Shown: piece after piece, positions 36,907-52,198 of the stretch
Layout of the letters: the number at the start of each line of letters is the position of its first letter
How positions within the stretch are numbered: position 1 is the stretch's first letter
Source: a virus
Taxonomy: Duplodnaviria; Caudoviricetes
Reading direction: 5' to 3' (one strand)
DNA: 64,000 nucleotides
Virus record (IMG/VR): IMGVR_UViG_2919380674_000001
Span: 15,963 to 79,962 of that record
The notes under the pieces: generated by a model
Databases searched by the model: none
Told to the model about the DNA's origin: nothing
What the model saw: the letters and a program-made list of their open reading frames with translations, nothing else
Program-made: the position numbers and the translations under genes

Positions 36907-36916
36907 GAGGCCAGTG

Positions 36917-37515: not shown

Positions 37516-37588
37516 AGCGTAGATGGATACAACCAGCTGAACCCCTTATTTATTAGGGGAAACGAGCAGTGTAAGGAGATTGAGATAC

Positions 37589-38836
37589 ATGGGTGAGATG
37601 AGGGTGATCCCGGCGAGACCAGCACGGCCGCAGCGGTTGAGGGTAGCGGCCTACGCGCGGGTGTCCACTGAGCACGAACGGCAATTGTCGTCGATCGCCG
37701 CCCAGGTGTCGTACTACTCCCATCTGATTCAATCCACCCCTGGGTGGGACTATGTCGGGGTGTTTATCGACGAAGGTATTACCGGCACCTCCACCAAGCA
37801 TCGCGATGGATTCAAACGCCTCATGGACACCGCTAGGGCAGGCGGCATTGACGTTATTTTGACGAAGTCGATCTCGCGCCTTGCCCGCAACACTGTCGAT
37901 CTGCTTGATGCGGTGCGCGAGCTGAAAGCCCTCGGGGTGGCGGTGCGTTTCGAACGCGAACAGATCGACACCCTCAGCGCTGACGGGGAACTCCTACTGA
38001 CGCTGCTGGCATCGTTTGTGCAGGAAGAATCTCGATCCATGTCAAAGAACGTCAAGTGGGGGATCAGGAAGAAATACGCCGACGGGTCAGTGCATTCGCG
38101 CCAACCCTACGGCTACCAATATTTAGGTGGCGACCTGGTCATCATTGAGGCCGAAGCCAAGATTATCAGAAGGATATTCGCGGAGTTCCTCGCAGGCATC
38201 TCACCCGAAGCCACCGCCACCCGGCTCAACGCTGAAGGGGTCAAGCCCAGGCGGGGAGCCAAGTTTCGTGGGAAGACGATCCGCAAATGGCTCGAAAACG
38301 AAATCTACACAGGCCGCGCGGTGCTGCAAAAGTATTACCGTCCAAACGTTGCAGAATCGAACTGTCATACCAACACAGGTGAGCTGCCCCGCTATCTTGT
38401 CGACGAATCCCACCCGGCCATCATCGACCAAACCACGTTCGACGCCGTCCAAGCCGAACTTGTCCGCCGCAGGCACCTTGGACGTGGAGCCACACCCTCA
38501 GGTGGCACGACCGGGCTCACCTCACGGATCGAATGCTTTGTCTGTGGCAGGTTCTATCACCGACGAACTAAGACAGGCCGCCACCGTTCTTACAAGTTCT
38601 GGTGGTGCGAAACCGCAACCAAAGGCAAAGGCAACCCCTGCCACGCACCCCAAATCCGAGAAACCCGCCTCACCCGGATCTGCACCCATGTGCTCGGCTT
38701 CGATGCCTGGGACGACGACACGGCTCTGACCAGCCTGGCGAAGATCGTCGTCAACCCGGATCGCACGCTCACCATCCACACCACCCGCACCGAAACGCCA
38801 GTGACGGTGAAGCTGGACGAGAGGAGCACACGGTGA
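37589..38836 (+). CDS. Large serine recombinase A
   Basis: VAAYARVST, DEGITGT, KSISRLARN; zinc ribbon. Confidence 0.92.
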   Translation: MGEMRVIPARPARPQRLRVAAYARVSTEHERQLSSIAAQVSYYSHLIQSTPGWDYVGVFIDEGITGTSTKHRDGFKRLMDTARAGGIDVILTKSISRLARNTVDLLDAVRELKALGVAVRFEREQIDTLSADGELLLTLLASFVQEESRSMSKNVKWGIRKKYADGSVHSRQPYGYQYLGGDLVIIEAEAKIIRRIFAEFLAGISPEATATRLNAEGVKPRRGAKFRGKTIRKWLENEIYTGRAVLQKYYRPNVAESNCHTNTGELPRYLVDESHPAIIDQTTFDAVQAELVRRRHLGRGATPSGGTTGLTSRIECFVCGRFYHRRTKTGRHRSYKFWWCETATKGKGNPCHAPQIRETRLTRICTHVLGFDAWDDDTALTSLAKIVVNPDRTLTIHTTRTETPVTVKLDERSTR

Positions 38837-40413
38837 CCACGACGCAGATTCGGCGGAAGCGGGTCACCGCGATCCCAGCCACGAAAACACCCGGCCACGC
38901 TACGGTGCTGGGTGTTCAGCGTCGGCGTAGAGTGGCGGCCTACGCGCGGGTATCCACCGAAGCTGAGGAACAAGCCTCCTCCTACGAGGCACAGATCGAC
39001 TACTACACCCACTACATCCAATCCCGCACCGAGTGGGAATTCGCAGGTATGTATGCCGACGAAGGCATCACCGGCACGAGCACGAAACACCGCGAAGGCT
39101 TCAAAACCATGATCGCCGACGCCCTGGCAGGCAAAATCGACCTCATCCTCACCAAGAGTGTGTCCCGGTTTGCTCGCAACACCGTCGACTCCTTGACCAC
39201 CGTGCGCAAGCTCAAAGACGCAGGCGTGGAGGTCTACTTCGAAAAAGAAAACATCTGGACACTCGATTCCAAAGGCGAACTGCTCATCACCATCATGTCC
39301 AGCCTGGCGCAAGAAGAATCCCGCTCAATTTCCGAGAACGTCACCTGGGGCCACCGTAAACGCTTCGCCGACGGGAAAATCATGGTCCCCTACGCTTCAC
39401 TGTTGGGCTACAAGAAAGGCGATGACGGAAACCTCGCCATCGACGAAACCCAAGCCCCGATCGTGCGGCGCATCTACGCCACCTTCCTAGAAGGCGCAAC
39501 ACCTCAAACCATCGCCAAAGAACTCACCGCTGATCAGATTCCTACACCGCGTGGCAAACAAATCTGGTCGCCATCCACTGTGCGATCGATCCTGACCAAC
39601 GAGAAATACAAAGGCGACGCGCTGCTCCAAAAGAGCTTCACTACCGACTTCCTGACCAAAACCATGAAAGTCAACGAAGGCGAAGTACCCCAGTACTACG
39701 TCACCGGCAACCACGAACCCATCATCACCCCAGCCACCTGGGACGTGGTCCAAGCAGAACTCGCCCGCCGCGCAGGCAAAGGCACCTCCAATACCCACCC
39801 CTTTGCCAACAAGATCACCTGCAGCGAGTGTGGTGGCTCGTTCGGGAGGAAAGTGTGGCACTCCACCAGCAAATACCGCCGCTATATCTGGCGCTGCAAC
39901 AACAAATACAAGAAAATTCATCGTTGCGCGACACCCCACGTCACCGAGGAGCAGATCAAAAACGCCTTCGTCGCCACCCTGGCTGAGCACGTCACCAACA
40001 CTGACGTTCTCGATAACACCATGTGCCTGCTCGACGAAACCGTCTACGACACCCGCGAGTTGGAAACTCAACAGGCCACGCTAGGGGAGCGGATCGAAGA
40101 AACGATCACGCTGATGAACCAACTCATCACCACCGCAGCAGCCACAACCCACGACCCCGACGACTACGACCGCCACTACCACCAGCTCGAAACCCGACAC
40201 CGCCAACTCGAGACCGAGCACCAGCACATCACCGACAAGATCGACGACCTGCGCCACCGCCGAGCACAAGCCATCAAAGTCCACGTCTACCTCGCCACCC
40301 TGCCACCACTCGCATACAGCGACCAAGCATGGAACACCCTCGTCGACCACGCCATTATCAACACTAATGGAGCCATCAGCGTCATCTTCAAAGACGAACA
40401 ATCGGCCAGCTAA
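38833..40413 (+). CDS. Large serine recombinase B
   Basis: GTG start after AGGAG; AAYARVST, KSVSRFARN, NEKYKGD; zinc ribbon and coiled coil. Confidence 0.93.
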   Translation: MTTTQIRRKRVTAIPATKTPGHATVLGVQRRRRVAAYARVSTEAEEQASSYEAQIDYYTHYIQSRTEWEFAGMYADEGITGTSTKHREGFKTMIADALAGKIDLILTKSVSRFARNTVDSLTTVRKLKDAGVEVYFEKENIWTLDSKGELLITIMSSLAQEESRSISENVTWGHRKRFADGKIMVPYASLLGYKKGDDGNLAIDETQAPIVRRIYATFLEGATPQTIAKELTADQIPTPRGKQIWSPSTVRSILTNEKYKGDALLQKSFTTDFLTKTMKVNEGEVPQYYVTGNHEPIITPATWDVVQAELARRAGKGTSNTHPFANKITCSECGGSFGRKVWHSTSKYRRYIWRCNNKYKKIHRCATPHVTEEQIKNAFVATLAEHVTNTDVLDNTMCLLDETVYDTRELETQQATLGERIEETITLMNQLITTAAATTHDPDDYDRHYHQLETRHRQLETEHQHITDKIDDLRHRRAQAIKVHVYLATLPPLAYSDQAWNTLVDHAIINTNGAISVIFKDEQSAS

Positions 40414-40497: not shown

Positions 40498-40549
40498 TTG
40501 TATCAAAATGAACGTGTAAGTAACCATTAGGACGCTCATTTTGATACAA
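40498..40549. other. att-like site 1 (52 bp)
   Basis: TTGTATCAAAATGAACGT-N16-ACGCTCATTTTGATACAA, a 17/18 inverted repeat; central AC at 40523-40524. Confidence 0.75.
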
Positions 40550-40730
40550 AGTATCGAGGTGAGCGTCTTTTGTTGTGCGGGCGGTGTTGGTGCTTGTCAG
40601 GGCGGTATTGGTGGTTGTTTTGAGGCGGTTCTTGCCCTGTCTTTGGGGCGTTTGGTGAGGGGTTGCGGCGGGGTTTTCGACCCCTTTTGCCGTCGGTTTA
40701 CGTGGCGTGGAGTGGTCGGTCCTTGTTGCC

Positions 40731-40842
40731 GCTAAAAAGTACGAGTTCCGCTAAAAAGTATGGGGTGTCGCTGAAAAGTATGGCTTGGTGCTAAAAGGTT
40801 TGGGTAAGCGTTAAAAAGTATGGGTCTGTGCCGAAGTTTGGG
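40731..40842 (+). repeat. Phased ~20-bp repeats (GCTAAAAAGTATGG), six copies
   Basis: Units start at 40731, 40750, 40770, 40790, 40810 and 40830. Confidence 0.75.
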
Positions 40843-41073
40843 TCGGGAATGAGAGTGGATTGGATACAAAGTTAGTTTCGACTTTGGTGCGATTTGCTGA
40901 AGCTTATGGCTTGTGAGCACAGCAAAAGGATGATTCCGCAGGTTAGCGCTTAGTGCGTTGATGCGTGTGAAGAACTTGAGCCAGTTCGGACTAACGCTGG
41001 CATAAATAGCCAACTCCCCCTTACAAAGAAGTATGGGAGTAACGTCGAAAAGTATGGATAGCACCGAAGGTTG

Positions 41074-42201
41074 TCAACATTCCTCCGGTGCCCATACGGT
41101 GAGAGCTACAGACGTGTCTGAGACCAGCTTCTTACGTGGTCGGTCAACAACAATTGCGACAGAGTGCTTGGCGCGGGTTACTGCGACGTAGAATGAACAG
41201 GCGCTTTTGTCGTCGAGCTGCTGGTTCTTAAGGCAGAAATCCTGAATGGACTTCGTTGCGAGGATCATTACGCGTTCATAGGTGCGCCCTTTGGCGACCC
41301 CGAAGTTGATGGGGTGAAGCGCAGCTTGATCTTTCCACGATGCTTTTGAGTGGCGCAGGATGGTTGGCGCAAAGGCGGTGTAGTAACTTTCAAGGTCTTG
41401 TTTGGCTACAAGAAAGACGCCGTTATGAGATGAGCTCTCGTGCATCAACGATATGGTTGGAGCAAATTCGAGGCTTGCAGGAAAGATGGTGTCTGAGAAT
41501 TCAGCAATAGCCTGGTTGAACCGATACGTTTCGGTTTTTTCTGTGATTTGTAGACATCCTTGCTTCTCGAACGCTCGATACCAATGGACAAGGTTTTGAC
41601 GGTCTGCGCCTTTGTTCCTGTTTGATGACAGGCTACTGTCGAGTAGTGATTGGCGGCTGTCTCCCACAATTAGGCATCGAACATTTTCCTGCTTGAGGAG
41701 CTGGGCGATGACATCTAAGCCGCTACGGCTGATATCCTGGGCTTCATCGATAAGTATTTCGTCATATATTTGTGAGAGACGATTCTCTACAAGGCCATTA
41801 GCCTTGAGCATGATCTGTGTGGCAAGTTCTTCCAGATGATCTTTGTAAACGAGCCCATTTGTGGTGAAGTATCTCTGTGGGTCGGTTTTCTTTATGTACC
41901 GAATCTTTGCACGCGCTTCACCGGCATCAAAGATGAAACCATTGATCCTCTGCTTGGGGAACGCTAAGGGCAAGTAGGGACGGACTACGTGATGTAGGAG
42001 AAAGGCGTACCAGCCTTCTATCTCGGGGAAACGTCCAGATTGCGTAGTGCTAGTTTTAAGACGTCCTTCAATCTCGTCTTGACCGGCGAGTGTTAACGTG
42101 AGAATCAATCTCCGTGTATCGGCTTTCTCTTGTGCACAGTGGTCAATGATGTGCTGAGTCTTTCCCGACCCTGCACATGCATGAATGAAATGGTGCTTCA
42201 T
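41074..42201 (-). CDS. gajB: UvrD-like helicase, Gabija GajB
   Basis: ACAGSGKT, IDEAQD, VGDSRQ, AKGRTY, YVAVTRAK; coupled to an OLD nuclease. Confidence 0.8.
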   Translation of the reverse strand: MKHHFIHACAGSGKTQHIIDHCAQEKADTRRLILTLTLAGQDEIEGRLKTSTTQSGRFPEIEGWYAFLLHHVVRPYLPLAFPKQRINGFIFDAGEARAKIRYIKKTDPQRYFTTNGLVYKDHLEELATQIMLKANGLVENRLSQIYDEILIDEAQDISRSGLDVIAQLLKQENVRCLIVGDSRQSLLDSSLSSNRNKGADRQNLVHWYRAFEKQGCLQITEKTETYRFNQAIAEFSDTIFPASLEFAPTISLMHESSSHNGVFLVAKQDLESYYTAFAPTILRHSKASWKDQAALHPINFGVAKGRTYERVMILATKSIQDFCLKNQQLDDKSACSFYVAVTRAKHSVAIVVDRPRKKLVSDTSVALTVWAPEEC

Positions 42202-43832
42202 GGCTGCGCCTCGATTATTTTCTCGATGGCCATGAACGCTTCTTTGAAATACTCAGGTGGATTCAAGGTGTGATCCGATTCTGCGATTGCCAAAGCCGAC
42301 TTAGTTTTATTTCCATTCTTTTGCATCCATAGCGCAATGGGATCTAACCTGACATTTGGGAAAATTTGTTTCAACAAAGCGTTGTTTCCTGCGCTTTCAA
42401 TTTGGGGTTCAAGCGTGTTTCCCAAGTCTGGGTGGCCGACGAAGATGTAGCGCTTTCCTTTTTCGAGATAATCTCTAAAGCTATTTTGCCAATGCTCTAT
42501 GGAATGCCCATCGTTATCTCTAAGGGCAAACAGCGGTTTGTGCAGTAATTTGGCCAGCTCGAAACATCTTTTGAAAGAGACACCGTTAACTGCCATGACA
42601 TCAACTCCGCAGTCCAGAGGTTCTCGCCCGAAATAGTCATGAAAGAACCTATTAAAGATGATTTCGTCTGATGGTCCCTCGACGACGACCATGAGGTCCG
42701 CGAGGATCAATCGAAGTGTGTCAAATCCGGAGAGTTTTTGAAAATATTGAATTGTTTCGCTTTCAAGGGACTCGAATCGAGCTGGATGCCCATTGGAGAT
42801 CAAAGTGATTTGGTTGAGTCCAAGTCGGTTAAGAATATAGGAGCTATGGGTTGTAATGAATACTTGTCGGCCGTGAGAAGCCTCTTGGATGTAGGAAATG
42901 AGCTGACGCATCCGAGTATGGCTGAGGTGATTCTCTGGTTCCTCGACAAAGATGAGACTGCTCTCATTAGCGTTTCGCCCTAACGCAAGAATCGTTTTCG
43001 CCACAGACTGGTTTCCTTGTCCTGCCATTGACAGCGGCACGGAATCAATGTCTGGAATCAAAGTGCTTTCCCATGAAGCCGACCGTGATTGGTCGACTTG
43101 CAAACCAACCACTGCCCCAGGGATTGAGTGGCTTTCATCACAGAGCGTGCTGTTCAACTCCTGCAGAACATCGCGGCCGAGCGTTGCACGGAGTTTTCGG
43201 TGCTCAACAGACACTTTGCTCCGGTCCTTGGAATCAAGCCGTGTCTCAAGAATTTGTCTCGTGTAATAGTTGATACCGCGTTCGGATTGGATTGTGCGAC
43301 TGTCGATTAGCGAAACAATCAGGTCTTTCGGTCGACGCAAGACTGGAAATCCTGCAAAACTTAGCCATTCGACTATGTAATATTCGGCTGGCAGGATTTC
43401 AGGGCAGTCCTCTTGTTTGACATACTCGTTGAGCTCTTGCGTGTATTCGGGATCGGGATGTGCCCATATGGAGAGGCCTACAGAATCTTCGTTTGCCATG
43501 TTATTGACGCCCCGGAGCTTCTGTAGCTCTCCCTTCTCTGTATCGAAGTAAACATCGATACGGAATTCAGGAGCAGTTTGGTAATTACGGTCAAGAGGGT
43601 CTTTAGAGAAGAACTCACTCACCAGTTGTTGATTGAACCAATACGGGTTGAGGTAATCTGTAGCTCGCGTACCATTGACGTGTCCGGTGAGTGCCAGTGT
43701 TATCGCTTCGATAAGTGTTGACTTGCCAGCTTCGTTTCCGCCAACGATGATGTTGGTTCCAGGTGTGGGTTCAAACGTAAACTCTCTGAATCTCCGATAA
43801 CCAAGTATTTGTACCTTCGATAGTATTGTCAC
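42198..43832 (-). CDS. gajA: OLD-family ABC-ATPase/TOPRIM nuclease, Gabija GajA
   Basis: GGNEAGKST, EEPENHL, TTHSS, VVEGPSD, RDND. Confidence 0.82.
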   Translation of the reverse strand: MTILSKVQILGYRRFREFTFEPTPGTNIIVGGNEAGKSTLIEAITLALTGHVNGTRATDYLNPYWFNQQLVSEFFSKDPLDRNYQTAPEFRIDVYFDTEKGELQKLRGVNNMANEDSVGLSIWAHPDPEYTQELNEYVKQEDCPEILPAEYYIVEWLSFAGFPVLRRPKDLIVSLIDSRTIQSERGINYYTRQILETRLDSKDRSKVSVEHRKLRATLGRDVLQELNSTLCDESHSIPGAVVGLQVDQSRSASWESTLIPDIDSVPLSMAGQGNQSVAKTILALGRNANESSLIFVEEPENHLSHTRMRQLISYIQEASHGRQVFITTHSSYILNRLGLNQITLISNGHPARFESLESETIQYFQKLSGFDTLRLILADLMVVVEGPSDEIIFNRFFHDYFGREPLDCGVDVMAVNGVSFKRCFELAKLLHKPLFALRDNDGHSIEHWQNSFRDYLEKGKRYIFVGHPDLGNTLEPQIESAGNNALLKQIFPNVRLDPIALWMQKNGNKTKSALAIAESDHTLNPPEYFKEAFMAIEKIIEAQP

Positions 43833-46801
43833 TGCGCTACCACCTGTTTGATGAGTGCGACGATGTCGTCGTGCTTGAGCTGTGGTGCGAACTGGACGTT
43901 GATGTTCTCGTCGCTGATGGAATCGAAGAATTTCTTGGCTGCCTTGAACCGTAGCTTCTCTGACTCGCGTAGGTCGGATTGGGCGTTGACGTCTTTTGTC
44001 TCGATGACGAAGTTCAGTGACATTTTGCCGTCTGCGCCTTTGAGTACGTACATGAAGTCTGGGCTTGTAGTACCACCGAAATAGACAGGGACACGAATGG
44101 ATCGCCTGGGGATCTTGCCGTAGACGACGACTTCGTCGAGCGCGTCGGAGTCTTGGATGTTGTCCTTTTCTTTCGGCGAGTCGTAGACGAACGCGTCGTA
44201 GAGGAACTTGTTTGGCACTTTCGCGCTGGTATCACGGTAGATGCCGATGTTGCCCTGGACGATGTCTCGTAGCGGCTTCCCGTCTGGTTCGGTCAGTGCT
44301 GTGGCTCCTAGTGGCGCGTCGATGCGCGTGTAGGAGAAGCGGTTGATGAACTCGCGTTGCATCCATTCATGGAACTGTGCGACGAATTTGGCGAGCGTAG
44401 CCTTATTGAAAAATTCCTCCGGCAACGGGTGCTTGGCGTTGTAGCGCACAAGACCGGCATTGATCGCCCGGATAGGCAAATAAGTCTGTAGGTAGGCAGC
44501 TTTGAGCCAGTCTCCATAGGTGAGCGTGTCATCGACGGAGAACACAGCCTTAGTTGATGCCTTTGCAACGAGCCCGCCATCATTGTCATGCTCGATTGTC
44601 TCTTGCATGAACCGCCTCACCTGAGCGGTGTAGATTCCTGAGTCCAAAATGTCGTCGATACAGCTGTCGATTTCTTGCTCAGTGAGGTTGTCGAGCCGCA
44701 GGTAATACTTGGCATTCACGGTCTCCCACAAGTCTTTAAGCTCGGCGTAACGCCCAGAGCGGATACCCACTTTGGTTTTGGTCTTGTTCGTCACCACCTT
44801 ATCGGGCTTGAGTTTGCCCACATTGAACTGCGGATAAGACTCCAACAGTTCTGATTCTCTTCCCTCAATAATGTTTTTGTCCGTATCGACAAATCCAGCC
44901 TGTAAGAGGCGAATAAACAAGTCGGTTTCTATAATTCCGAGCTCTGCCGCGACCTTGGGCAGGAGTTCCTTCACTGACGGTGTTGCCACTGTAGCGTCAG
45001 AGTTGATCTCGCCAATTAGCGCGTTTGCAAACGACTTCTCGGTGTAGTCGATCAGGTAGGTGAGGTAGAACTGTTCGTTTGCAAGCCGTGTACCGTTCAC
45101 GTCTACAGGCAAGCGCAGACCGCGTCCGACTTCTTGAAGCTTGGAAATCTCTGAGCCCGAGGAACGGAGTTTGACGATCTGGAAGACGTTCGGGTTATCC
45201 CACCCCTCACGCAGCGTCCACTTCGAGAAAACGAAGCGCATCGTATTGGGTGTGCCATCCGGATTCGTGAAAGAGAGCAACGCCTGCTTGTCTCGCAGGA
45301 TTTGATCAACCTCAGCTTGGATCACTTCATCACTCGAAGAATTATCCGCCGCAAAGTAGCCGCCATTCGTTGCCGTCACATCCGTCAGTGACGCACGCAG
45401 ATAGGCAGCGTACTCCTTTCCGACTGTGGATGCGTCGTTCTTGTGTTCCTCAATCTGCTCGTTCAGTTTCGCGGTGAGAAGTTCATGGAACCGTGCACGC
45501 AGATGTCCTGGCCCATCCTCACCACGGTAGGATTCAATCGAGTCGATGAAAAACAGTGTGAGTGTTTTAACCTTGGTGGAGCGACGGAAATTTTCCCACT
45601 CGGCTTCGAAGTGATTATCGAGCGCTTGTTTCATCATCAAGCTCTGGTACGTCTCTGAATACACACGGCTAGCCACAATATCGCCCGTCGCGAGGATTTG
45701 CCCGTTCGACAACGTAACACCGGATTTGATCAACGTGTTCTCGGTCTTGCCCACACCCTCAACTGTGAGACCAGCGAAATCGCCATCGACATCGCCCAGG
45801 GATTCACCTACTCGCAGCGTGATGGACTTGCCGGTATCGAGGTTATTGAACGTGACACTCTTCGGTTTTGAGCGCGACATACTAGTGAGCTTAAGCCGCA
45901 CGGACTCACCGCCGTCATCTTGCGGGTACTGTATCGCCACACCCTTAACGAGTTGCTCGTTGAACGCCTCAATCGACCCGAGGTTAAACACAAGATTGTT
46001 GTAATCCGTCGCCCCTGATTTATCTAACTTCGGGAATGTTGCACCGAACCGGAAGATAGCTTGTGGTTGGATCTGCTCAAGCAGCACTTGATAGGCCTTG
46101 TTCTCGCGGCGGAACCTGTGCGGCTCGTCAATGATCACCACTGGGCGGGTCATCGCCAATGCCTCATACGGTTGGCTCGACATGCCCAGCACTGTATGGT
46201 CGTACACGGTTGCCATCGTCGCTTTCGACTGCAACATCCCGTCCGTCATCAACAACGCGCTAATACGGCCTTTCGCTAAGCGGGAGGTCTGCACGAAATT
46301 TGAAATCGCCGAGGGGAACATCTTGCGGCCCTTGCGTCGCTTCTGTGGATCAAGCACCTCCAGATCCAACTTATAGCGACCACCGTAGGTGTCATCAAAG
46401 TACTGGCGGGCGTAGTCCGCTTTCATGAACGACCGGGTACCTTCTTTGATCGGCGTCGAGGGCACCAGAATGATGAACTTGTGGAACCCGTAAAGCCGGT
46501 TCAGCTCAAACATCAACTGCGTGTACACCAAGGTTTTACCAGTACCAGTCTCCATCTTGATATCCACGCCCAGCACACCATCATCGCTGCGGGTACGCCA
46601 CGCGCGCGGCACAGCCGCCACCCCGTCAACAGCCCCAGCCTGTATCTGCGCGATGTTATGTGCAATCTGCGGATTACTCACCTCAAAAACCGGATTCGCT
46701 TCCGCAGGACTAGTGAAGCTCAAATCAACACCAGCGAATACACCAGTCGCCGCTTTCAACGCACGCTGTTGATGCTCAAGGGTTTGAAGCCTAATCTGCA
46801 T
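43829..46801 (-). CDS. res: Type III restriction endonuclease subunit
   Basis: METGTGKT, IDEPH, LREGWDNPNVFQI, QEVGRGLR, SPDF..IETK. Confidence 0.93.
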   Translation of the reverse strand: MQIRLQTLEHQQRALKAATGVFAGVDLSFTSPAEANPVFEVSNPQIAHNIAQIQAGAVDGVAAVPRAWRTRSDDGVLGVDIKMETGTGKTLVYTQLMFELNRLYGFHKFIILVPSTPIKEGTRSFMKADYARQYFDDTYGGRYKLDLEVLDPQKRRKGRKMFPSAISNFVQTSRLAKGRISALLMTDGMLQSKATMATVYDHTVLGMSSQPYEALAMTRPVVIIDEPHRFRRENKAYQVLLEQIQPQAIFRFGATFPKLDKSGATDYNNLVFNLGSIEAFNEQLVKGVAIQYPQDDGGESVRLKLTSMSRSKPKSVTFNNLDTGKSITLRVGESLGDVDGDFAGLTVEGVGKTENTLIKSGVTLSNGQILATGDIVASRVYSETYQSLMMKQALDNHFEAEWENFRRSTKVKTLTLFFIDSIESYRGEDGPGHLRARFHELLTAKLNEQIEEHKNDASTVGKEYAAYLRASLTDVTATNGGYFAADNSSSDEVIQAEVDQILRDKQALLSFTNPDGTPNTMRFVFSKWTLREGWDNPNVFQIVKLRSSGSEISKLQEVGRGLRLPVDVNGTRLANEQFYLTYLIDYTEKSFANALIGEINSDATVATPSVKELLPKVAAELGIIETDLFIRLLQAGFVDTDKNIIEGRESELLESYPQFNVGKLKPDKVVTNKTKTKVGIRSGRYAELKDLWETVNAKYYLRLDNLTEQEIDSCIDDILDSGIYTAQVRRFMQETIEHDNDGGLVAKASTKAVFSVDDTLTYGDWLKAAYLQTYLPIRAINAGLVRYNAKHPLPEEFFNKATLAKFVAQFHEWMQREFINRFSYTRIDAPLGATALTEPDGKPLRDIVQGNIGIYRDTSAKVPNKFLYDAFVYDSPKEKDNIQDSDALDEVVVYGKIPRRSIRVPVYFGGTTSPDFMYVLKGADGKMSLNFVIETKDVNAQSDLRESEKLRFKAAKKFFDSISDENINVQFAPQLKHDDIVALIKQVVAQ

Positions 46802-46805
46802 CGCC

Positions 46806-48689
46806 CTACAGCCTCTCAATCACAGACACGATACGACCAGATTTCAGCACCGAGAGGTTTTTCTTCAACTCATGCATCACCGAAAACGTCACTGAATACC
46901 CAAACACCACAACCCGAGAAACCGCAAGATCCCCGTTCTCAAGCAGGCGAACAAGCTCCACCACGTCATCACTCGTCAAACCCGGAGAGATGATATAAGC
47001 AGAATCTCCGCACACATCCAGCTCGTAGCTCTCCAGCCGCACTTTCTCAGCAGAGGTTGTTAGCCCGTAACCGTCCTTCACCAACCACGTCGCCAACACA
47101 GTGTCATGCCCGGGCGTACCGTTCAGGTCGAATTTTGAGACATAATCCCCAGCTAGCAACGTACCGTCCTGCTTCGGATCAAACGTCAGCAGATCATCAA
47201 GAACCTGCCCAGACGGCTCCTCCAAACGATACAAGCGGAACCCATAATCAATATCCGCACCAGTCTCACCCTTAATCTTCGCAGCAGCACGCTTAATCCG
47301 CTCACGACCAATCTCGTCAATCGTGCGGTAACCAGCATCATAAGCAGGTTTCTTAGGATCAATACACTCTGGCAATTGAACGAGAATAAAGCGACGATTA
47401 CCATTATCTTCAGCGTTGAGTTGCATCAAAGCATCAGCTGTTGTTCCAGAGCCAGAGAAGAAATCCATTATCACAGCTGAGGAGTCCCAGTGGAGTGAGA
47501 TTAGATATTTAACTAGAGCAGTCGGTTTTGGCTGTGAGAACACCTTATCTGAATTAAGTAGAGCCGCAAGTTCCTTTGTCCCATGGCTGTTATATCCCAC
47601 GTCTTCAGTTCGCAAAAGGGCGTCGCCAGGCTGTCCTTCCTGTACTGTCCACAAGTACCGCTTAGCAGAAGGATTGCCGTCTTTGGAGAAAACAATCTGT
47701 CCGGTCGCCTCCATCGATCTGAGCGTTTCTTCTGAGTACCTTGGGAAAGATCCTTCTGGTGCTGTCCAGATAATCCCATTCTTAAAGGTGTACGTGTACG
47801 GCTTCGCATAGTTTCGTGCGTAGATCGGATCTAATTTATATGGCCCTTTACCGTCCTGGTCATCACGGTTGTATGCCTTTGATTTGTCGTACTTTGCGCG
47901 CAGTCGAAACCGATCGTCGCTAACGTATGTATCCCTATTTGTGAGGCTAACTACGACAAAATCTGTATTTTCATTCATATCTTCGGAACTATTGCGAACG
48001 GTATGCAAAGCTTTTCGAGTAAGCGTTGCGACTGCATTTTGTTCTCCGAAAATCTCATCGCAGAGTAGTCTCAGATTCGCAAGTTCATTGTTGTCGATAC
48101 TGATGAATATGACTCCATCGTCGGAAAGCAACTGTTTAGCGAGCTGGAGACGCGGATACATGAAGGTGAGCCACGCGGAATGTGAGGACTTGCCTTGAAG
48201 GTCAAGTACTCGTTCTGCTTCGTCTTCGCTGAGACCGATCTTGTCGACAAGCTGTGCAGATGTGAATCCGAAGTCGTCGTTGTAGATGAACCCATCGGAG
48301 CCTGTGTTGTAGGGCGGGTCGATGTAGATGCACTTGACTTTGCCTGCATAGGAGCCGAGCAGGTGTTTGAGGGCGTCGAGGTTGTCGCCGACGATATAGA
48401 GGTTTTCGGAGTCCTTGTTTTCCGGTTGGCTATTGTGCTCTAGATCTGGAACGACAACAGTTTCAGTCTCAGTGGAAGTTAGATACTTGGCATAGGATTT
48501 ACCAAGGAATTTCAGTTCGTAGCCCTCTTTAGTAAGGTTTACCCCCCCCCGCGTGAGGCAGGCTTGGAATTTATCGAGCATAAACTCGCCGTCTTTGTCG
48601 AAATACTCTGGCAGTGTTGCACGCAGCCGCTCGATGTCAAATTCGTTCGGGGTAACGGTTTCGTTGTATTCGTGAGCGTCACGGATCAT
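46806..48689 (-). CDS. mod: Type III methyltransferase subunit (m6A)
   Basis: GDNLDALK, IYIDPPYNTG, WLTFMYPRL, DFFSGSGTT. Confidence 0.93.
   Translation of the reverse strand: MIRDAHEYNETVTPNEFDIERLRATLPEYFDKDGEFMLDKFQACLTRGGVNLTKEGYELKFLGKSYAKYLTSTETETVVVPDLEHNSQPENKDSENLYIVGDNLDALKHLLGSYAGKVKCIYIDPPYNTGSDGFIYNDDFGFTSAQLVDKIGLSEDEAERVLDLQGKSSHSAWLTFMYPRLQLAKQLLSDDGVIFISIDNNELANLRLLCDEIFGEQNAVATLTRKALHTVRNSSEDMNENTDFVVVSLTNRDTYVSDDRFRLRAKYDKSKAYNRDDQDGKGPYKLDPIYARNYAKPYTYTFKNGIIWTAPEGSFPRYSEETLRSMEATGQIVFSKDGNPSAKRYLWTVQEGQPGDALLRTEDVGYNSHGTKELAALLNSDKVFSQPKPTALVKYLISLHWDSSAVIMDFFSGSGTTADALMQLNAEDNGNRRFILVQLPECIDPKKPAYDAGYRTIDEIGRERIKRAAAKIKGETGADIDYGFRLYRLEEPSGQVLDDLLTFDPKQDGTLLAGDYVSKFDLNGTPGHDTVLATWLVKDGYGLTTSAEKVRLESYELDVCGDSAYIISPGLTSDDVVELVRLLENGDLAVSRVVVFGYSVTFSVMHELKKNLSVLKSGRIVSVIERL
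48542..48550 (-). repeat. G9 homopolymer inside the 5' end of mod
   Basis: C9 on the + strand; encodes R-G-G-V in frame. Confidence 0.8.
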
Positions 48690-48940
48690 TGTGCGATCTC
48701 CTGTTCGTTTGGGACGACTTCGCAGATGTCGTTTATGTCGCATTCTAGGGCGGTGCAGATCCTGGCGAGGACGTCTGTGGTGACGTTGCCATCACGTCCT
48801 AGTTTGGCGATGGTGGCTGGTGATAGGCCGGTTGCGTGGCGTAGGTCTTCTCGGGTCATGTCGCGGTCGATGAGGAGTTTCCACAAGGGTTTGGAGGTGA
48901 TGGTCAATTGGGTTCGGCTCCTTGTGTGGTGGTTGTTCAA
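48686..48940 (-). CDS. XRE/HTH_26 transcriptional regulator
   Basis: KPLWKLLIDRDM, LSPATIAKLG, VLARICTALECDINDI; ATGA overlap with mod. Confidence 0.88.
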   Translation of the reverse strand: MNNHHTRSRTQLTITSKPLWKLLIDRDMTREDLRHATGLSPATIAKLGRDGNVTTDVLARICTALECDINDICEVVPNEQEIAQ

Positions 48941-49112
48941 GGTCGAGGCTGGTGCTTGGTTTGCAACTACACCGGGTCACCGTGAACGTGAAGGCCTTAC
49001 TCACATGCTACCGCTTGGCACTGACTTTAAGCTGTTTGACACCTGACGGGTCGAGTTACTCGTCTCACAACCCTGATTGCTCCACATGAGTGGTTTGCAC
49101 CCACAATCAGCC

Positions 49113-49164
49113 TTGTATCAAAATGAACGTCTAAGTAACTAACTGCCTGCTGGTGTTGATACAA
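49113..49164. other. att-like site 2 (52 bp)
   Basis: Left half matches site 1 at 26 of 27 nt, up to the central AC (49138-49139); the site ends in TTGATACAA. Confidence 0.75.
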
Positions 49165-49196
49165 TTTCGCGCCAGCAGGTTTTGTTTTGTGAGAGT

Positions 49197-49352: not shown

Positions 49353-50906
49353 TTACTGGGCTCCAATCTCGGTGCCGTCTTTAAACATCACGGCTGCGTG
49401 CCCGTCAGGGGTGATGTTGATTCGTTGGCACAGGGCGTGAAAAGTGGCGGGGCCGAATTCTCCTGCTGTATCTAGGTCGGTGAGGGTGCGGCGATATTTG
49501 GCAAGTTCGGCTTTGAGTCCTTTGCGCCGCTCAATCTCAGCTTGGGTAGCGTTGTAGGCGTCGATTGCTTGTTGTTGTCTTGCTTCGAGCTGGGCGAAAG
49601 CGTGCTGGTATTCGCTCTGGTCTTGCGCCTGGGTGGCGTTGGCGCTGATGGCTTGCCGGATGAGTTTGGTGCAGGCCTCGATCTCAGCTGCTTGTGTGAT
49701 AGCGGTTGCCTCTAGCTCGGTGGTGTCGGTGAGCGTGGTTTCGAGCAAGTCCCAGTCGATGAGGTTGCGGCGTTTAAGCAAGGTGGCAAGCGCGGTTAGA
49801 AAGATATGTTCGAGTTGCTTATCACGCAGGATGGGCATTTGGGCGGGATGTGGGCTGCGGCATTTGTGGTTGCATTGCCAGATCACGGTTTTGTAGGCAT
49901 CGGTGGAATGCCAGGTTTTGCTCCCGTAAGTGCGTCCGCAGTGGGTGCAGAAGATCTTGCCGGTAAAGACGCGTTCTCTTCTGCCGATGCCGCGCGCATT
50001 GAATTCGGCTTGGGCAAGCTCCCACGTTTCGGGATCAATGATGGCTGGGTGTGAGCCGGTCACATAGTATTGGGGTACCTCGCCTTCGTTGATCTTTTTG
50101 GTTTTGGTGAGGAAGTCGACGGTGAACGTCTTTTGCAGGAGCGCGTCACCTTTGTATTTTTCGTTGGTGAGGATGGGTTGGATGGTGGTGTGGCTCCAGC
50201 GGGTTTTGCCACGCGGGGTGAGCACGCCGTCAGTATCGAGCGCGGCGGCGATTTGTGGGATGCTCATGCCTTCAAGGTAGTGGCGGTAGATCCGGCGCAC
50301 GGTTTCGGCCTGTTCGGGGTTAATAACCGGGCTACCGTCTGAGCCGCGCTTGTAGCCGAGGAAGTTTTTGAAGGGCATATTTACTTTCCCGTCGGAGAAG
50401 CGTTTGCGCTGTCCCCAGGTGACGTTCTCGCTAATAGAGCGTGATTCTTTTTGGGCAAGGCTGGACATGATGGTGATCAAGAGTTCGCCTTTAGAATCGA
50501 GTGTCCAGATGTTTTCTTTTTCGAAGAACACCTCCACACCCTTATCTTTCAAGGCGCGGACGGTGGTGAGGGAGTCGACGGTGTTGCGAGCAAACCGGCT
50601 GACGCTTTTTGTGACGATCAGGTCGATTCTGCCGCTCAGGGCGTCGGTGACCATCTGGTTGAAGCCGTCGCGGTGTTTGATGCTCGTGCCGCTGATGCCT
50701 TCGTCAGTGTAGATACCTGCATACTGCCAGCCGTCGTGGGAGCGAATATAGTGCTCGTAGTAATCCACCTGGGCGGCATAAGAGTTGGCTTGGTCAGCAT
50801 CATCTGTGGAGACGCGGGCATAGCCTGCGACCCGGCGGATGTTGGGCAGGGCGTGGTTGCCAGAGTGTAGGGGTTTGGTTGCTGGGATCGCGGTGATTTT
50901 TGGCAT
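49353..50906 (-). CDS. Large serine recombinase B'
   Basis: AGYARVST, KSVSRFARN, NEKYKGD; paralogue of 38833-40413. Confidence 0.92.
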   Translation of the reverse strand: MPKITAIPATKPLHSGNHALPNIRRVAGYARVSTDDADQANSYAAQVDYYEHYIRSHDGWQYAGIYTDEGISGTSIKHRDGFNQMVTDALSGRIDLIVTKSVSRFARNTVDSLTTVRALKDKGVEVFFEKENIWTLDSKGELLITIMSSLAQKESRSISENVTWGQRKRFSDGKVNMPFKNFLGYKRGSDGSPVINPEQAETVRRIYRHYLEGMSIPQIAAALDTDGVLTPRGKTRWSHTTIQPILTNEKYKGDALLQKTFTVDFLTKTKKINEGEVPQYYVTGSHPAIIDPETWELAQAEFNARGIGRRERVFTGKIFCTHCGRTYGSKTWHSTDAYKTVIWQCNHKCRSPHPAQMPILRDKQLEHIFLTALATLLKRRNLIDWDLLETTLTDTTELEATAITQAAEIEACTKLIRQAISANATQAQDQSEYQHAFAQLEARQQQAIDAYNATQAEIERRKGLKAELAKYRRTLTDLDTAGEFGPATFHALCQRINITPDGHAAVMFKDGTEIGAQ

Positions 50907-52156
50907 CAGTGGTTCACCTCCAATCCAGTGCGGTAATCAATTGTCGTGCTTCTCCCGTCGGTGTGGTGGATGGTGAGGAGCCAATCGGGCGTAGCTTCAA
51001 TGCGCTCAACCTGTTCAATGACGGTTTTGTCATCCGAATCGGCTAGATCCAAGGCGGTGCAGATGATGGCGCGTATCTTTTCCTCGCGGAGTTGGTGGGC
51101 TTTGCATGGATTGCCGTGGCCTTTGGTGGCGGTTTCGCACCACCAGTACTTGTATTCTCCATGGGCTTGTTTCCTGGTGCGGCGCTGATAGTGCTTGCCA
51201 CGTTGGGTGCAGGTGATGCGGTGGGTGAGTGCTCCGGTGCCTCCCGTGGGGGTCAGGCCACGCCCGCCGGATGCTCTACGTTTTGCCAGTTCTGTCTGTA
51301 CCGCGTCAAAGGTTTTGCGGTCGATGATTGGTGGGTGGGAGTCTTCTATCAGGTATTTGGTGAGTTGGCCTGTGTTGGGGCTGCTGGTGCTTTTGCCGAC
51401 GTGTGCTCGATAGTGTTTTTGGCAGATTGCATCGCCTGTGTAGGTTTCGTTTTCTAGCCATTGACGGGTCACGGATGCTCTAAACTTGCCGCCGCCACGC
51501 GAGCGTAGCCCCTCAGCATTGAGCGTGTCGACGGTTTTCTCAGGGCTAATGCCTTTGAGGAATTCATCGAATACGCGGCGCACAATCACGGCTTCTTCTT
51601 CAACGATGTCGAGCTGGCCGTGGTGGTAGCGGTATCCGTAGGGGTGGCGCGAATGCAACAGCTCATCCTTGTACTTTTTTCTGATTCCCCACTTCGCGTT
51701 AGCCGAGATAGATTCGGATTCAGTTTGCGCGAACGAGGCTAGTAAAGTGAGGAGGATTTCGCCTTCAGCGTTGGCGGTGTCAAGGTGCTCGCGTTCGAAA
51801 CGCACCGATACACCAGCAGCAGATAGTTCACGCACGGTTTCGAGGAGGTCGACGGTGTTACGGGCGAAGCGGGAGATGGATTTGGTGAGGATAATGTCGA
51901 TACTCCCTGCGAGTGCTTGCTCGATCATCTGGTTGAACTCGCCACGCCCCGTGGTAGATGTACCTGTCGTTGCGTAGTCGCTGTAGACGCCAGCGTATTC
52001 CCAGCCCGGCGTTGAGCTGATGAGCTGGTTGTAGTAGGAGACTTGCGCGGAGAAGGAATGAGTGAGACGTTCCGATTCGCGTGAGACCCGCACGTAGGCC
52101 GCCACCCGCAGGCGTTTGGTGAGTGCGGGGCGTGGGGGTAGTTTGTGGATCTCCAT
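50906..52156 (-). CDS. Large serine recombinase A'
   Basis: AAYVRVS, KSISRFARN; paralogue of 37589-38836. Confidence 0.9.
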   Translation of the reverse strand: MEIHKLPPRPALTKRLRVAAYVRVSRESERLTHSFSAQVSYYNQLISSTPGWEYAGVYSDYATTGTSTTGRGEFNQMIEQALAGSIDIILTKSISRFARNTVDLLETVRELSAAGVSVRFEREHLDTANAEGEILLTLLASFAQTESESISANAKWGIRKKYKDELLHSRHPYGYRYHHGQLDIVEEEAVIVRRVFDEFLKGISPEKTVDTLNAEGLRSRGGGKFRASVTRQWLENETYTGDAICQKHYRAHVGKSTSSPNTGQLTKYLIEDSHPPIIDRKTFDAVQTELAKRRASGGRGLTPTGGTGALTHRITCTQRGKHYQRRTRKQAHGEYKYWWCETATKGHGNPCKAHQLREEKIRAIICTALDLADSDDKTVIEQVERIEATPDWLLTIHHTDGRSTTIDYRTGLEVNH

Positions 52157-52198
52157 TCTTGCTTCCTTTTGGATCAATATCGGTGTATTTCCTTGCTT

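What the first reader, a model, noticed from the sequence alone, without database searches (positions are those of the whole stretch)
40498..49164. Defence cassette precisely bounded by two 52-bp att-like sites
Seen: both sites run TTGTATCAA...TTGATACAA over exactly 52 bp, in direct orientation. Their shared sequence (26/27 nt) stops exactly at the central AC dinucleotide, as expected for a serine-recombinase crossover. Recombination would release an 8615-bp circle carrying HTH-mod-res-gajA-gajB and no recombinase of its own. Inference: a non-autonomous, SCC-like defence cassette mobilised in trans by the flanking phage recombinases, or tandem accretion at one att site.
Basis: partly seen in the sequence, partly recalled or inferred. 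Interest (0 to 1): 0.75.

Follow-up and report, generated by a model that had tools for sequence, protein, structure and literature searches.

The report
Recombinase-less defence cassette in prophage array
An 8.6-kb block of anti-phage genes lies between two genuine serine-recombinase docking sites, as one unit in a head-to-tail stack of mobile elements behind an alanine tRNA gene; this is a known way for bacteria to stack, and possibly pass on, gene cassettes.

Summary
Both 52-bp sites exist at 40498-40549 and 49113-49164. They are 8,615 bp apart and share 26/27 nt up to a central AC.

They are real large-serine-recombinase (LSR) recombination joints. An empty/occupied site pair (G001/G004) and contigs of three other organisms all break homology at that AC.

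Both sites are internal element-to-element junctions, not attL/attR. They belong to a head-to-tail array that starts at tRNA-Ala(ggc), 16.5 kb upstream of the window:
- a 4.2-kb ABC-F unit
- phage 1 (52.8 kb, LSR pair)
- the cassette (HTH, Type III mod and res, GajA, GajB; no recombinase)
- an inverted phage-2-type remnant (LSR pair)

The cassette belongs to neither phage and has its own arms.

Small recombinase-less units bounded by the same sites occur in other actinobacterial genera. Their cargo includes arsenic resistance, Type IIG R-M and ABC ATPases. One arsenic unit is 91% identical between two genera, exactly from core to core, at different targets.

Tandem accretion is therefore well supported. 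Present-day excision as an 8,615-bp circle is plausible but not shown.

This is a phage-driven variant of a known kind: cis-mobilizable elements (CIMEs) in accretion arrays, SCC-like defence cassettes, and Dehalococcoides ssrA islands.

The parts
37580..38836 (+). recA1, the shorter LSR of phage 1's pair (418 aa)
   Evidence: Pfam Resolvase + Recombinase + Zn_ribbon_recom. It is 58% identical to recA2 and 87% identical to the G004 prophage homolog.
38833..40413 (+). recB1, the longer LSR of phage 1's pair. The ORF list gives 38602-40413. The likely start is the GTG at 38833, which overlaps the recA1 stop as GTGA.
   Evidence: Pfam domains. The GTGA overlap is read from the sequence. Homologs in G003 and G004 are 517 and 528 aa.
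40498..40549 (+). Site A: phage 1 arm P (40498-40522), core AC (40523-40524), cassette arm P' (40525-40549)
   Evidence: Contigs of X3, X4 and X7 that carry the phage-1-type recombinase end match up to 40526 and then run on unlike the window. An X3 contig joins a tRNA 3' end to 40523-40550.
40529..40569 (+). Terminator hairpin formed by the P' arm
   Evidence: 19-pair terminator-like hairpin. RNA fold -26.5 kcal/mol, z = -6.5.
40550..40845 (+). Cassette left (P') arm, with CGCTAAAAAGTATGG-type repeats at 40742-40783
   Evidence: 40523-40845 is 87.7% identical to the DNA directly after the tmRNA gene of the same genome, g216172-216493. It is 81-83% identical to a G002 arm. The repeats are family D14.
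40732..41064 (-). 110-aa ORF of unknown function, possibly not a gene because it overlaps the arm repeats
   Evidence: No Pfam, PADLOC or NCBIfam hit.
41074..42201 (-). gajB (UvrD-like helicase of Gabija)
   Evidence: PADLOC GajB, E = 6.9e-96. Pfam UvrD-helicase.
42198..43832 (-). gajA (ATPase-TOPRIM nuclease of Gabija)
   Evidence: PADLOC GajA, E = 2.6e-155. Pfam AAA_15 + OLD-like TOPRIM.
43829..46819 (-). Type III restriction subunit (res)
   Evidence: PADLOC REase_III, E = 1.7e-254. Pfam ResIII + RE_endonuc.
46806..48743 (-). Type III methyltransferase (mod)
   Evidence: PADLOC MTase_III, E = 2.3e-173. Pfam N6_N4_Mtase + EcoP15I C-terminal domain.
48686..48940 (-). XRE/Cro-type HTH regulator, first gene of the operon
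   Evidence: Pfam HTH_26, E = 2.5e-19. 48705-48922 is 87.6% identical to an HTH gene in the tmRNA-linked element.
48941..49093 (.). Spacer unique to this cassette; presumed operon promoter region (inferred)
   Evidence: No match in the own genome or in any locus fetched.
49094..49112 (+). Short remnant of the conserved P arm, holding one TGCACCCA-type repeat
   Evidence: Alignment of eight P arms. The cassette shares only about 45 nt, site included, with the others.
49113..49164 (+). Site B: cassette arm P (49113-49137), core AC (49138-49139), recombinase-proximal arm of the phage-2 type (49140-49164)
   Evidence: In G014 and G015 the same right half directly follows tmRNA. In G014 it continues into recB2/recA2 and late phage genes, 80% identical to 49138-52561.
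49145..49180 (+). Terminator hairpin formed by the phage-2-type arm
   Evidence: RNA fold -22.8 kcal/mol, z = -4.5. G002 has compensatory stem changes.
49353..50906 (-). recB2, the longer LSR of the phage-2-type remnant
   Evidence: Pfam domains. 51.6% identical to recB1 and 86-87% to the G014 homolog.
50906..52177 (-). recA2, the shorter LSR of the phage-2-type remnant
   Evidence: Pfam domains. 58% identical to recA1.
52567..53649 (-). Portal gene of the phage-2-type remnant. It is 360 aa, against 434 aa in phage 1 and 478 aa in G002. It lies directly next to the recombinases, so head, tail and lysis genes are missing.
   Evidence: Pfam Phage_portal. Inverted repeats to phage 1. G002 homolog.

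Best explanation
**What it is.** The 8,615-bp segment is a recombinase-less cargo unit. It resembles a CIME (cis-mobilizable element: a unit that has lost its own integration genes but kept both att sites) or a pseudo-SCC cassette. It lies inside a head-to-tail accretion array of LSR elements at tRNA-Ala(ggc).

**The array, in order.**
- tRNA-Ala(ggc)-AC-P'
- a 4.2-kb ABC-F unit with LSR fragments
- a junction at g4127
- phage 1 (52.8 kb) ending in recA1/recB1
- site A
- the cassette
- site B
- a phage-2-type remnant beginning with recB2/recA2 in inverted orientation

**The sites.** Each site is 25 nt + AC + 25 nt. Strand exchange happened at the AC.
- Site A joins phage 1's recombinase-proximal arm to the cassette's own P' arm.
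- Site B joins the cassette's own P arm to the recombinase-proximal arm of the phage-2 type.
- The phage-2 type integrates with opposite polarity because its core reads GT in phage orientation.

**How it formed (inferred).** A cassette-bearing element sat at the tRNA first. Phage 1 then integrated into its tRNA-side junction, and the phage-2 type into its distal junction.

**Origin of the unit (inferred).** It probably descends from a larger LSR element by internal deletion.

**Function.** It is a defence operon: XRE-type HTH, Type III R-M and Gabija.

**Present-day mobility.** I put about 40% on the unit still being movable, either alone as a circle or together with a neighbour, by the flanking LSR pairs acting in trans.

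**Shown versus inferred.** Shown: the sites, the AC crossover, the array, the cassette's independence from both phages, and the existence and spread of sister units. Inferred: the order of events, the deletion origin and current mobility.
For: **Crossover at the AC.**
- The G001 empty tmRNA site equals the G004 tmRNA left half plus the right half of the G004 attR. A 46-kb prophage lies between the G004 sites, and its LSR pair is 87% and 84% identical to recA1/recB1.
- In X3, X4 and X7 (three organisms, three studies) the long contig with the phage-1-type recombinase end matches 36700-40526 and then diverges.
- X3 also has a tRNA 3' end joined to 40523-40550.

**The array.**
- Site A's right half, from the AC on, follows tmRNA, tRNA-Ala(tgc) and tRNA-Ala(ggc) in the own genome.
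- The contig ends overlap by 22.7 kb, which places tRNA-Ala(ggc) 16.5 kb upstream of the window.
- The genes after that tRNA run into phage 1.

**The cassette is not part of phage 1.** P-AC is followed by host-type hairpin flanks in G003, G004, X3 and X7.

**The cassette is not part of phage 2.** In G014 the phage-2 arm is joined directly to tmRNA.

**The cassette has its own arms.** The left arm has a 324-nt match at 88%. The right arm is the exact 25-nt P half plus about 20 nt.

**Sister units.**
- 5 of 29 loci holding the exact 27-nt P-AC have a P' half within 6 kb upstream. 4 of those have no LSR and 1 has only a zinc-ribbon fragment.
- The arsenic unit is 90.9% identical over 3,476 nt between a Mobiluncus MAG and Actinomyces urinae. 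The match runs core to core, the flanks are unrelated and the targets differ.
- The L126 and L116 units differ by loss of the LSR-fragment segment at one locus.
- 4 of the 29 loci are P-AC-P' junctions like site A.

**Precedent.** CcrAB excises recombinase-less defence cassettes lying between internal att sites (PMC11470126; abstract and passages read).
Against: - No contig of the four runs laid bridges A to B or shows a circle joint. These were contigs, which drop rare forms.
- No second copy of this cassette bounded by these sites was found. Its 5-gene block occurs in other genera without any such half-site within 16-20 kb, so the cargo travels by other routes too.
- The cassette keeps only about 20 nt of the conserved P arm beyond the site and has no LSR relic, so neither origin is proven.
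- Both sites are arm/arm (attP-type). In phiC31- or Bxb1-type systems integrase alone recombines only attP x attB (recalled knowledge; consistent with the abstracts listed).
- The array's right end (P-AC-host) was not found.
- The g4127 junction belongs to a diverged site subfamily, 12/25 identical to the P consensus by my count, so the left boundary of phage 1 is less secure.
- In A. urinae and G002 a site-B-like right half is followed by non-recombinase DNA. The half may therefore also exist as native attB' DNA. For G000 I rely on its contiguity with the phage-2 recombinases.
Confidence: 0.8

Rival explanations
1. Active SCC-like cassette. The flanking phage LSR pairs recombine site A with site B. 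This releases an 8,615-bp circle carrying a regenerated P-AC-P' site, which can re-integrate elsewhere.
For: - Both sites are complete 52-bp sites with intact cores.
- Two intact-looking LSR pairs flank the cassette.
- The arsenic unit moved as a precise core-to-core unit between genera and targets.
- CcrAB does this for middle cassettes in SCC arrays (PMC11470126).
- In run X4, two alternative continuations follow the same P half: one is P-AC-P' and the other is a different right half.
Against: - No circle or empty joint was seen.
- attP-type x attP-type is not a canonical LSR reaction (recalled).
- No other copy of this cassette is known with these ends.
- The 0 hits for the attP-type pattern in viral contigs say nothing either way.
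Confidence: 0.35
2. Inter-locus exchange. The cassette originally lay behind the tmRNA gene. It was joined to phage 1 by LSR recombination between phage 1's attR at tRNA-Ala(ggc) and an attL at tmRNA. On this reading it arrived by chromosomal rearrangement, not by integration.
For: - The cassette's left arm and its HTH gene have their closest relatives (88%) directly behind the tmRNA gene of the same genome.
- attL x attR is a canonical LSR + RDF reaction (recalled).
- The site-B-type half follows tmRNA in G014 and G015.
Against: - 88% identity is too low for a recent exchange within one genome.
- The tmRNA still carries its own complete P' arm and element.
- Such an exchange between direct sites 150 kb apart would delete the interval between them.
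Confidence: 0.1
3. The cassette is simply the cargo (moron) region of phage 1 or of the phage-2 type, and one of the sites is an internal duplicate.
For: - Defence genes do sit in the att-proximal arm of the related prophages at tmRNA and tRNA-Ala(ggc).
- The cassette genes are co-oriented with the phage-2 remnant.
Against: - Phage-1-type prophages in G003, G004, X3 and X7 end at P-AC and continue into host DNA.
- The phage-2 type in G014 begins at its arm, directly after tmRNA.
- Homology breaks exactly at the AC on both sides.
Confidence: 0.03
4. The repeat is a dispersed terminator or REP-like sequence unrelated to recombination, and its bounding of the cassette is coincidence.
For: - The right halves form strong terminator hairpins.
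- The 18-mer occurs 8 times in the genome.
Against: - Every copy sits at a tRNA/tmRNA end or at an element boundary.
- An empty/occupied site pair and contig breakpoints map to the AC.
- The control pattern gives 0 matches.
Confidence: 0.01

Closest known systems
SCC composite islands with ccr-less, SCC-like defence cassettes in staphylococci (Hossain, Aslan & Hatoum-Aslan 2024, PMC11470126; abstract and passages read)
   Same: - Two LSR genes in tandem.
- Head-to-tail arrays with internal att sites.
- Recombinase-less cassettes carrying R-M and other defence systems, shown there to excise singly or together when CcrAB is supplied.
   Different: - The recombinases here score 63-141 bits against CcrA/B/C cut-offs of 700-900.
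- The target is tRNA-Ala/tmRNA, not rlmH.
- The recombinases are carried by temperate phages with structural and lysis genes, not by an SCC.
- Excision is not demonstrated here.
CIMEs (cis-mobilizable elements) and site-specific accretion. Pavlovic 2004 and Bellanger 2011 are known to me only as cited in Guedon et al. 2017, PMC5704250 (passages read).
   Same: A unit that has lost integration and transfer genes but keeps both att sites, standing in tandem with an autonomous element of the same site specificity. The three-step model of integration, decay and integration of a newcomer into a resident att site fits this array.
   Different: - Those systems use tyrosine integrases of ICEs/IMEs and conjugative transfer.
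- Here the partners are prophages with paired serine recombinases, and any transfer route is unknown.
Dehalococcoides ssrA-specific genomic islands (McMurdie et al. 2011, PMC3146451; passages read)
   Same: - Tandem islands behind the tmRNA gene.
- A CcrB-family large serine recombinase plus a second, smaller serine recombinase.
- 15 islands without an integration module, proposed there to be cis-mobilizable.
   Different: - The boundaries there are 20-bp direct repeats of the ssrA end. Here they are 52-bp quasi-palindromic arm/arm junctions that share only the core with the tRNA.
- The cargo there is dehalogenases, and the elements are not phages.
Phage LSR attP/attB systems (phiC31, Bxb1, A118, SPbeta SprA). 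The features are recalled; abstracts were seen in the listing.
   Same: Sites of about 50 bp with imperfect dyad symmetry and a non-palindromic central dinucleotide that sets polarity. The recombinase gene lies next to attP.
   Different: - Those phages have a single integrase and strict attP x attB selectivity.
- Here there are two paralogous LSRs per phage, several tRNA-type targets and arrays with attP-type internal junctions.
- Paired LSRs at phage ends also occur in deposited Streptococcus prophages (two places per record).

Membership tests
Large-serine-recombinase attachment site | Site of about 40-50 bp with imperfect dyad symmetry around a non-palindromic central dinucleotide | tested here: met
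   25 + AC + 25. Site A is 38/52 self-complementary and site B 30/52.
Large-serine-recombinase attachment site | Crossover maps to the central dinucleotide when empty and occupied sites are compared | tested here: met
   G001 empty tmRNA site against G004 attL/attR. The X3, X4 and X7 contigs diverge at 40526, and the X3 attL starts at 40523.
Large-serine-recombinase attachment site | An LSR gene (Resolvase + Recombinase + zinc ribbon) lies adjacent | tested here: met
   recB1 ends 85 nt before site A and recB2 ends 189 nt after site B.
Large-serine-recombinase attachment site | The recombinase binds and recombines the site | not testable with these tools
   Needs an in vivo or in vitro assay.
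SCC / pseudo-SCC elements | CcrA/CcrB or CcrC recombinases | tested here: not met
   NCBIfam scores are 63-141 bits against cut-offs of 700-900.
SCC / pseudo-SCC elements | Integration at the 3' end of rlmH (orfX) | tested here: not met
   The targets are tRNA-Ala(ggc), tRNA-Ala(tgc) and tmRNA.
SCC / pseudo-SCC elements | Recombinase-less cassettes between internal att sites of a tandem array served by a paired LSR | tested here: met
CIME in an accretion array | Lacks its own integration and transfer genes but keeps both att sites | tested here: met
   No LSR hit inside the cassette. Both 52-bp sites are complete.
CIME in an accretion array | Stands in tandem with an autonomous element of the same att specificity | tested here: met
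   Phage 1 has open LSR frames and late genes. Its P half is 24/25 identical to the cassette's.
CIME in an accretion array | Derived by decay of a complete element | tested here: inconclusive
   The cassette holds no relic. The sister units L126 and L116 show such a loss.
CIME in an accretion array | Mobilised in cis or in trans | not testable with these tools
   No joint was seen in the contigs of four runs. The arsenic unit's core-to-core homology across genera is indirect evidence for the family, not for this unit.
Gabija | GajA (ATPase-TOPRIM) followed by GajB (UvrD-like helicase) | tested here: met
   PADLOC GajA E = 2.6e-155 and GajB E = 6.9e-96, in adjacent overlapping genes.
Type III restriction-modification | Adjacent Mod methyltransferase and Res helicase-nuclease | tested here: met
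   PADLOC MTase_III E = 2.3e-173 and REase_III E = 1.7e-254.
Phage satellite (PICI-like) | Own integrase, replication and phage-interference or packaging genes | tested here: not met
   The cassette holds only HTH, R-M, Gabija and one unknown ORF.

The most novel reading that the evidence does not exclude
Temperate phages of Actinomycetota that carry two LSRs may run an SCC-like cassette economy. Recombinase-less cargo units carrying Gabija + R-M, Type IIG R-M, arsenic resistance or ABC-F ATPases all end in the same 52-bp site. The 27-nt half of that site is letter-perfect from Corynebacterium and Cutibacterium to Actinomyces, Mobiluncus and Brevibacterium. On this reading, the units are inserted, stacked and moved between tRNA-Ala and tmRNA targets, and between genera, by phage recombinases acting in trans. 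Phages would then be distributing the host's anti-phage genes.
Probability: 0.3. Interest if true: 0.7.

Novelty: new variant of a known kind. Interest (0 to 1): 0.5.

Why it matters
The finding shows a concrete route by which defence operons can be stacked and exchanged next to prophages. Units with standard ends are docked at tRNA-type genes by serine recombinases they do not encode.

If the units are still mobile, phage-borne recombinases would spread anti-phage systems and other cargo, such as arsenic resistance and ABC-F ATPases, across several actinobacterial orders that include skin, mucosal and animal-associated genera.

The exact conservation of the half-site also offers a simple sequence handle for finding such cassettes in genomes. 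The natural arm/arm junctions could be used to test the site-pair rules of paired LSRs.

Tried and rejected
- **Viral contigs.** The site-A-type (attP-like) pattern gave 0 hits in viral contigs. This proves nothing.
- **Laid runs.** The contigs of X3, X4, X7 and X9 gave no contig bridging site A to site B and no cover of the cassette interior apart from a short HTH piece. Contigs drop rare forms, so this is no evidence against excision.
- **Right end of the array.** I searched with 9-mers and with TGCACCCA clusters. Only the known arms were found.
- **Synteny test.** I asked whether site B's right half is native tmRNA-downstream DNA. The G002 flank beyond its site has no match in G000, which is uninformative.
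- **Readings I held and dropped.** I first read site B's right half as host attB' DNA. Before that I considered a chromosomal inversion to explain the inverted phage 2. Both were dropped when G014 showed that the phage-2 type integrates with its recombinase-proximal arm next to tmRNA.
- **Earlier notes.** Look-ups by place and by sequence returned nothing.
- **Technical failures.** aragorn fed through stdin found no tRNAs and was repeated from a file.
- **Not run.** I sent no complex prediction for the LSR pair, because paralogous recombinases would pass by likeness alone.

Full report
**Observation.** Site A (40498-40549) and site B (49113-49164) are present as described.
- Each is 52 bp, beginning TTGTATCAA and ending TTGATACAA.
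- They are direct repeats 8,615 bp apart (family D10: 57 nt at 79% identity).
- Their first 27 nt differ at one position, and identity ends after an AC that is the exact centre (25 + AC + 25).
- The 18-nt core occurs three times in the window at up to 3 mismatches, against 0.05 expected; 0 of 100 shuffles reached three. The third copy is the inverted right arm of site A, which is 38/52 self-complementary. Site B is 30/52.

**Gene content.** On the minus strand between the sites lie a 110-aa ORF with no hits, GajB, GajA, Type III Res, Type III Mod and an XRE-type HTH.
- tblastn with the four flanking recombinases finds nothing inside.
- To the left, phage 1 (plus strand: tail, amidase/CW_7 lysin) ends with two LSR genes: recA1 (418 aa) and recB1. 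The likely recB1 start is the GTG at 38833, which overlaps the recA1 stop.
- To the right lie recB2 and recA2 on the minus strand, then a SHOCT protein, a shortened portal gene and a terminase gene. This is a phage remnant related to phage 1 (66-79% nucleotide identity) but inverted.
- The A-type proteins are 58% identical to each other, the B-type 52%, and A against B 39-45%.

**The sites are recombination joints.**
- In the own genome the 18-mer occurs 8 times, with 0 for the control pattern.
- Site A's right half, from the AC on, directly follows the 3' ends of tmRNA, tRNA-Ala(tgc) and tRNA-Ala(ggc). These are three alanine-type acceptor ends, giving ...CTCC-AC-CA[YT]TA[GA]G ACGCTCATTTTGATACAA.
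- In the genus, 10 of 15 relatives carry the motif, mostly right after tRNA or tmRNA genes. A conserved arm continues beyond it.
- G004 holds a single 46-kb prophage between tmRNA-AC-P' and P-AC-B'. Its LSR pair is 87% and 84% identical to recA1/recB1.
- G001 has the uninterrupted tmRNA-AC-B' with the same B'. This is an empty/occupied pair that puts the exchange at the AC.
- Contigs of public runs were laid on 36700-52200. In X3, X4 and X7 (three organisms, three studies) the long contig with the phage-1-type recombinase end matches up to 40526 and then runs on unlike the window. In X3 and X7 it continues into a hairpin flank. X9 diverges at 40521.
- X3 also has a tRNA 3' end joined to 40523-40550.
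- In X4 the contig ends at the branch, and two short unitigs continue from the same P half. One is the P-AC-P' junction and the other has a different right half.

**The array.**
- The contig's ends overlap by 22.7 kb, so tRNA-Ala(ggc) lies 16.5 kb upstream of the window.
- After that tRNA comes a 4.2-kb unit with LSR fragments and an ABC-F-type ATPase.
- Next comes a 52-bp quasi-palindrome with central AC at g4127, preceded by three TGCACCCA repeats.
- Then come a methylase, an ABC-3C system and the early genes of phage 1, which run into the window.
- Measured from core to core, the units are 4,227 bp, 52,832 bp and 8,615 bp.

**Site B's right half.**
- It is the recombinase-proximal arm of the phage-2 type. 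In G014 and G015 it follows tmRNA directly.
- In G014 it continues into recB2/recA2 (86-87% and 84% amino-acid identity) and then lysin, tail and head-region homologs over 16.5 kb. This stretch is contiguous with window 49138-52561 at 80% identity.
- The phage-2 type therefore integrates with the opposite polarity. This explains the convergent recombinase pairs without any inversion.
- Both right halves are strong terminator hairpins (z = -6.5 and -4.5), as expected of arms that replace a tRNA's own terminator.

**The cassette is its own unit.**
- Phage-1-type prophages elsewhere end at P-AC and go into host DNA (G003, G004, X3, X7). The phage-2 type begins at its arm. So the cassette belongs to neither.
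- Its left arm (40523-40845) is 88% identical to the arm behind the tmRNA gene of the same genome. There a decayed prophage carries another Type III R-M, the same HTH gene (88%) and an ABC-3C system before its early genes.
- Its right end keeps the exact 25-nt P half but only about 20 nt of the conserved arm.
- 48941-49093 matches nothing I hold.

**The cargo travels by other routes too.** The 5-gene block in the same order occurs in G008, G101 and G188.
- Res is 75-89% identical, GajA 52-53% and GajB 47-49%.
- There are no such half-sites within 16-20 kb, apart from one 4-mismatch match that looks like chance.
- G040 has a partial block, and G042 has mod and res only.

**Sister units.** The exact 27-nt P-AC occurs in 9 metagenome contigs and 20 species genomes. 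The species genomes are titled Corynebacterium, Schaalia, Lawsonella, Mobiluncus, Varibaculum, Arcanobacterium, Actinomyces, Propionimicrobium, Brevibacterium and Cutibacterium. Of these 29 loci:
- 23 continue into diverse hairpin-type flanks;
- 4 continue into a P'-type half, like site A (L101, L120, L122, L129);
- 2 continue into a site-B-type half (L117, L118);
- 11 have an LSR within 6 kb upstream;
- 5 have a P' half within 6 kb upstream, which gives units of 3.4-4.8 kb.

The five small units carry:
- ArsA/ArsD/ArsR-ArsC (L113, L118);
- a Type IIG R-M enzyme (L116, L126; L126 also has an LSR zinc-ribbon fragment);
- an ABC ATPase (L127).

Further points on these units:
- Four sit at tRNA-Ala(ggc). 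L113 sits at another target.
- In A. urinae, housekeeping-type genes flank the unit on both sides.
- The arsenic units of L113 and L118 are 90.9% identical over 3,476 nt, from core to core, with unrelated flanks. This is the best evidence that recombinase-less units of this family move as units.
- L126 and L116 share the locus and 95% of the unit, but L116 lacks the LSR-fragment segment. This shows decay in place.

**Mechanism.** The shown facts fit the accretion model reviewed in PMC5704250 (passages): integration, decay to a unit that keeps its att sites, and integration of newcomers into the resident's junctions. The order I infer is cassette-bearing element first, then phage 1 into its tRNA-side junction and the phage-2 type into its distal junction.

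Whether A x B recombination happens today is open.
- Both are arm/arm sites, which single phage integrases do not pair (recalled).
- However, CcrAB excises middle cassettes of SCC arrays (PMC11470126).
- These phages, like SCC and the Dehalococcoides ssrA islands (PMC3146451), carry two serine recombinases.
- I put about 40% on present-day mobility.

**Comparison and novelty.**
- The recombinases are not Ccr members: 63-141 bits against cut-offs of 700-900.
- Paired LSRs at phage ends are already present in deposited Streptococcus prophages.
- One full-text search (serine recombinase, tRNA-Ala, tmRNA, Actinomyces, Corynebacterium, prophage; 16 papers, 10 listed) showed no title describing this att family. 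I read none of those papers apart from PMC3146451.
- Earlier notes of this scan list several similar serine-recombinase arrays in other genomes. They are unchecked, but they lower the novelty.
- My verdict is a real, well-explained structure: a phage-driven variant of a known kind.

**Open points.**
- The array's distal end is not located.
- The g4127 site and the right halves seen in X4 and behind the G003 tmRNA form a ...GGATACAA subfamily whose relation to phage 1 is unclear.
- Whether the site-B-type half also exists as native attB' DNA (A. urinae, G002) is not settled.

Noticed in passing
G000:C1:1-22734 and 2010308-2033041 (window 1-6272 lies in it): The single contig's two ends overlap by 22,734 nt and are not perfectly identical.
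   Followed up: partly
G000:C1:4127-4178 (12.3 kb upstream of the window): A 52-bp quasi-palindrome (38/52) with central AC, preceded by three TGCACCCA repeats. Its halves (...GAGTAC...GGATACAA) form a subfamily distinct from sites A and B. Similar right halves follow P-AC in run X4 and follow tmRNA in G003.
   Followed up: partly
G000:C1:1295496-1298073 (L011): A 2.5-kb recombinase-less unit behind tRNA-Ala(tgc) carrying an ABC-F-type ATPase (2 x ABC_tran). Its P end lacks the AC core and runs straight into a terminator tail, as if part of the site had been deleted. A 70%-identical ABC-F gene sits in the first unit behind tRNA-Ala(ggc).
   Followed up: partly
window 41074-48940; L078, L082, L084: HTH-mod-res-gajA-gajB is a conserved five-gene operon in several genera of the family, in the same order and outside any site of this kind. 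Type III R-M and Gabija therefore travel as one co-transcribed module.
   Followed up: partly
window 40742-40783, 41036-41057; 49190-49280; G000:C1:216380-216470: The arms next to the sites carry short iterated motifs: CGCTAAAAAGTATGG-type in P' arms, GCGCCAAAAT and GCGTAAAAGTTGG in the phage-2 arm, and TGCACCCA in P arms. These may be binding sites for an accessory or directionality protein.
   Followed up: no
window 54665-54970, 56189-56318, 59830-60210: The phage-2-type remnant holds duplicated pieces, including a terminase 3' fragment (families D3, D4, D7, D8). It also holds a response regulator (57695-58417) with a neighbouring 384-aa ORF. G002 keeps the same genes at 75-99% amino-acid identity, so the layout is conserved rather than random decay.
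   Followed up: partly
G000:C1:1114809-1176899 (L012, L064, L013): A fourth, full-length relative of phage 1 (up to 91% nucleotide identity) sits at tRNA-Gly(ccc). It has a different core (TC) and its LSR pair lies next to the tRNA. This is the same phage backbone with flipped att polarity.
   Followed up: partly
L130 (G002:C1:591000-603000): In G002 the recB2 homolog is split by an insertion of about 6.4 kb that carries a distant LSR-like gene (26-28% identity).
   Followed up: no
run X4, window 40497-40550: Two alternative short unitigs (depths 13.4 and 8.6, against 31.5 for the main contig) continue from the same P half. One is a P-AC-P' junction and the other a different right half. This could reflect integrated and excised forms, or two prophage copies in that isolate.
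   Followed up: no
L101-L129: The 27-nt P half plus core is letter-perfect in genomes titled as ten genera of several actinobacterial orders, far more conserved than the recombinases next to it (64-87% identity to recB1).
   Followed up: partly
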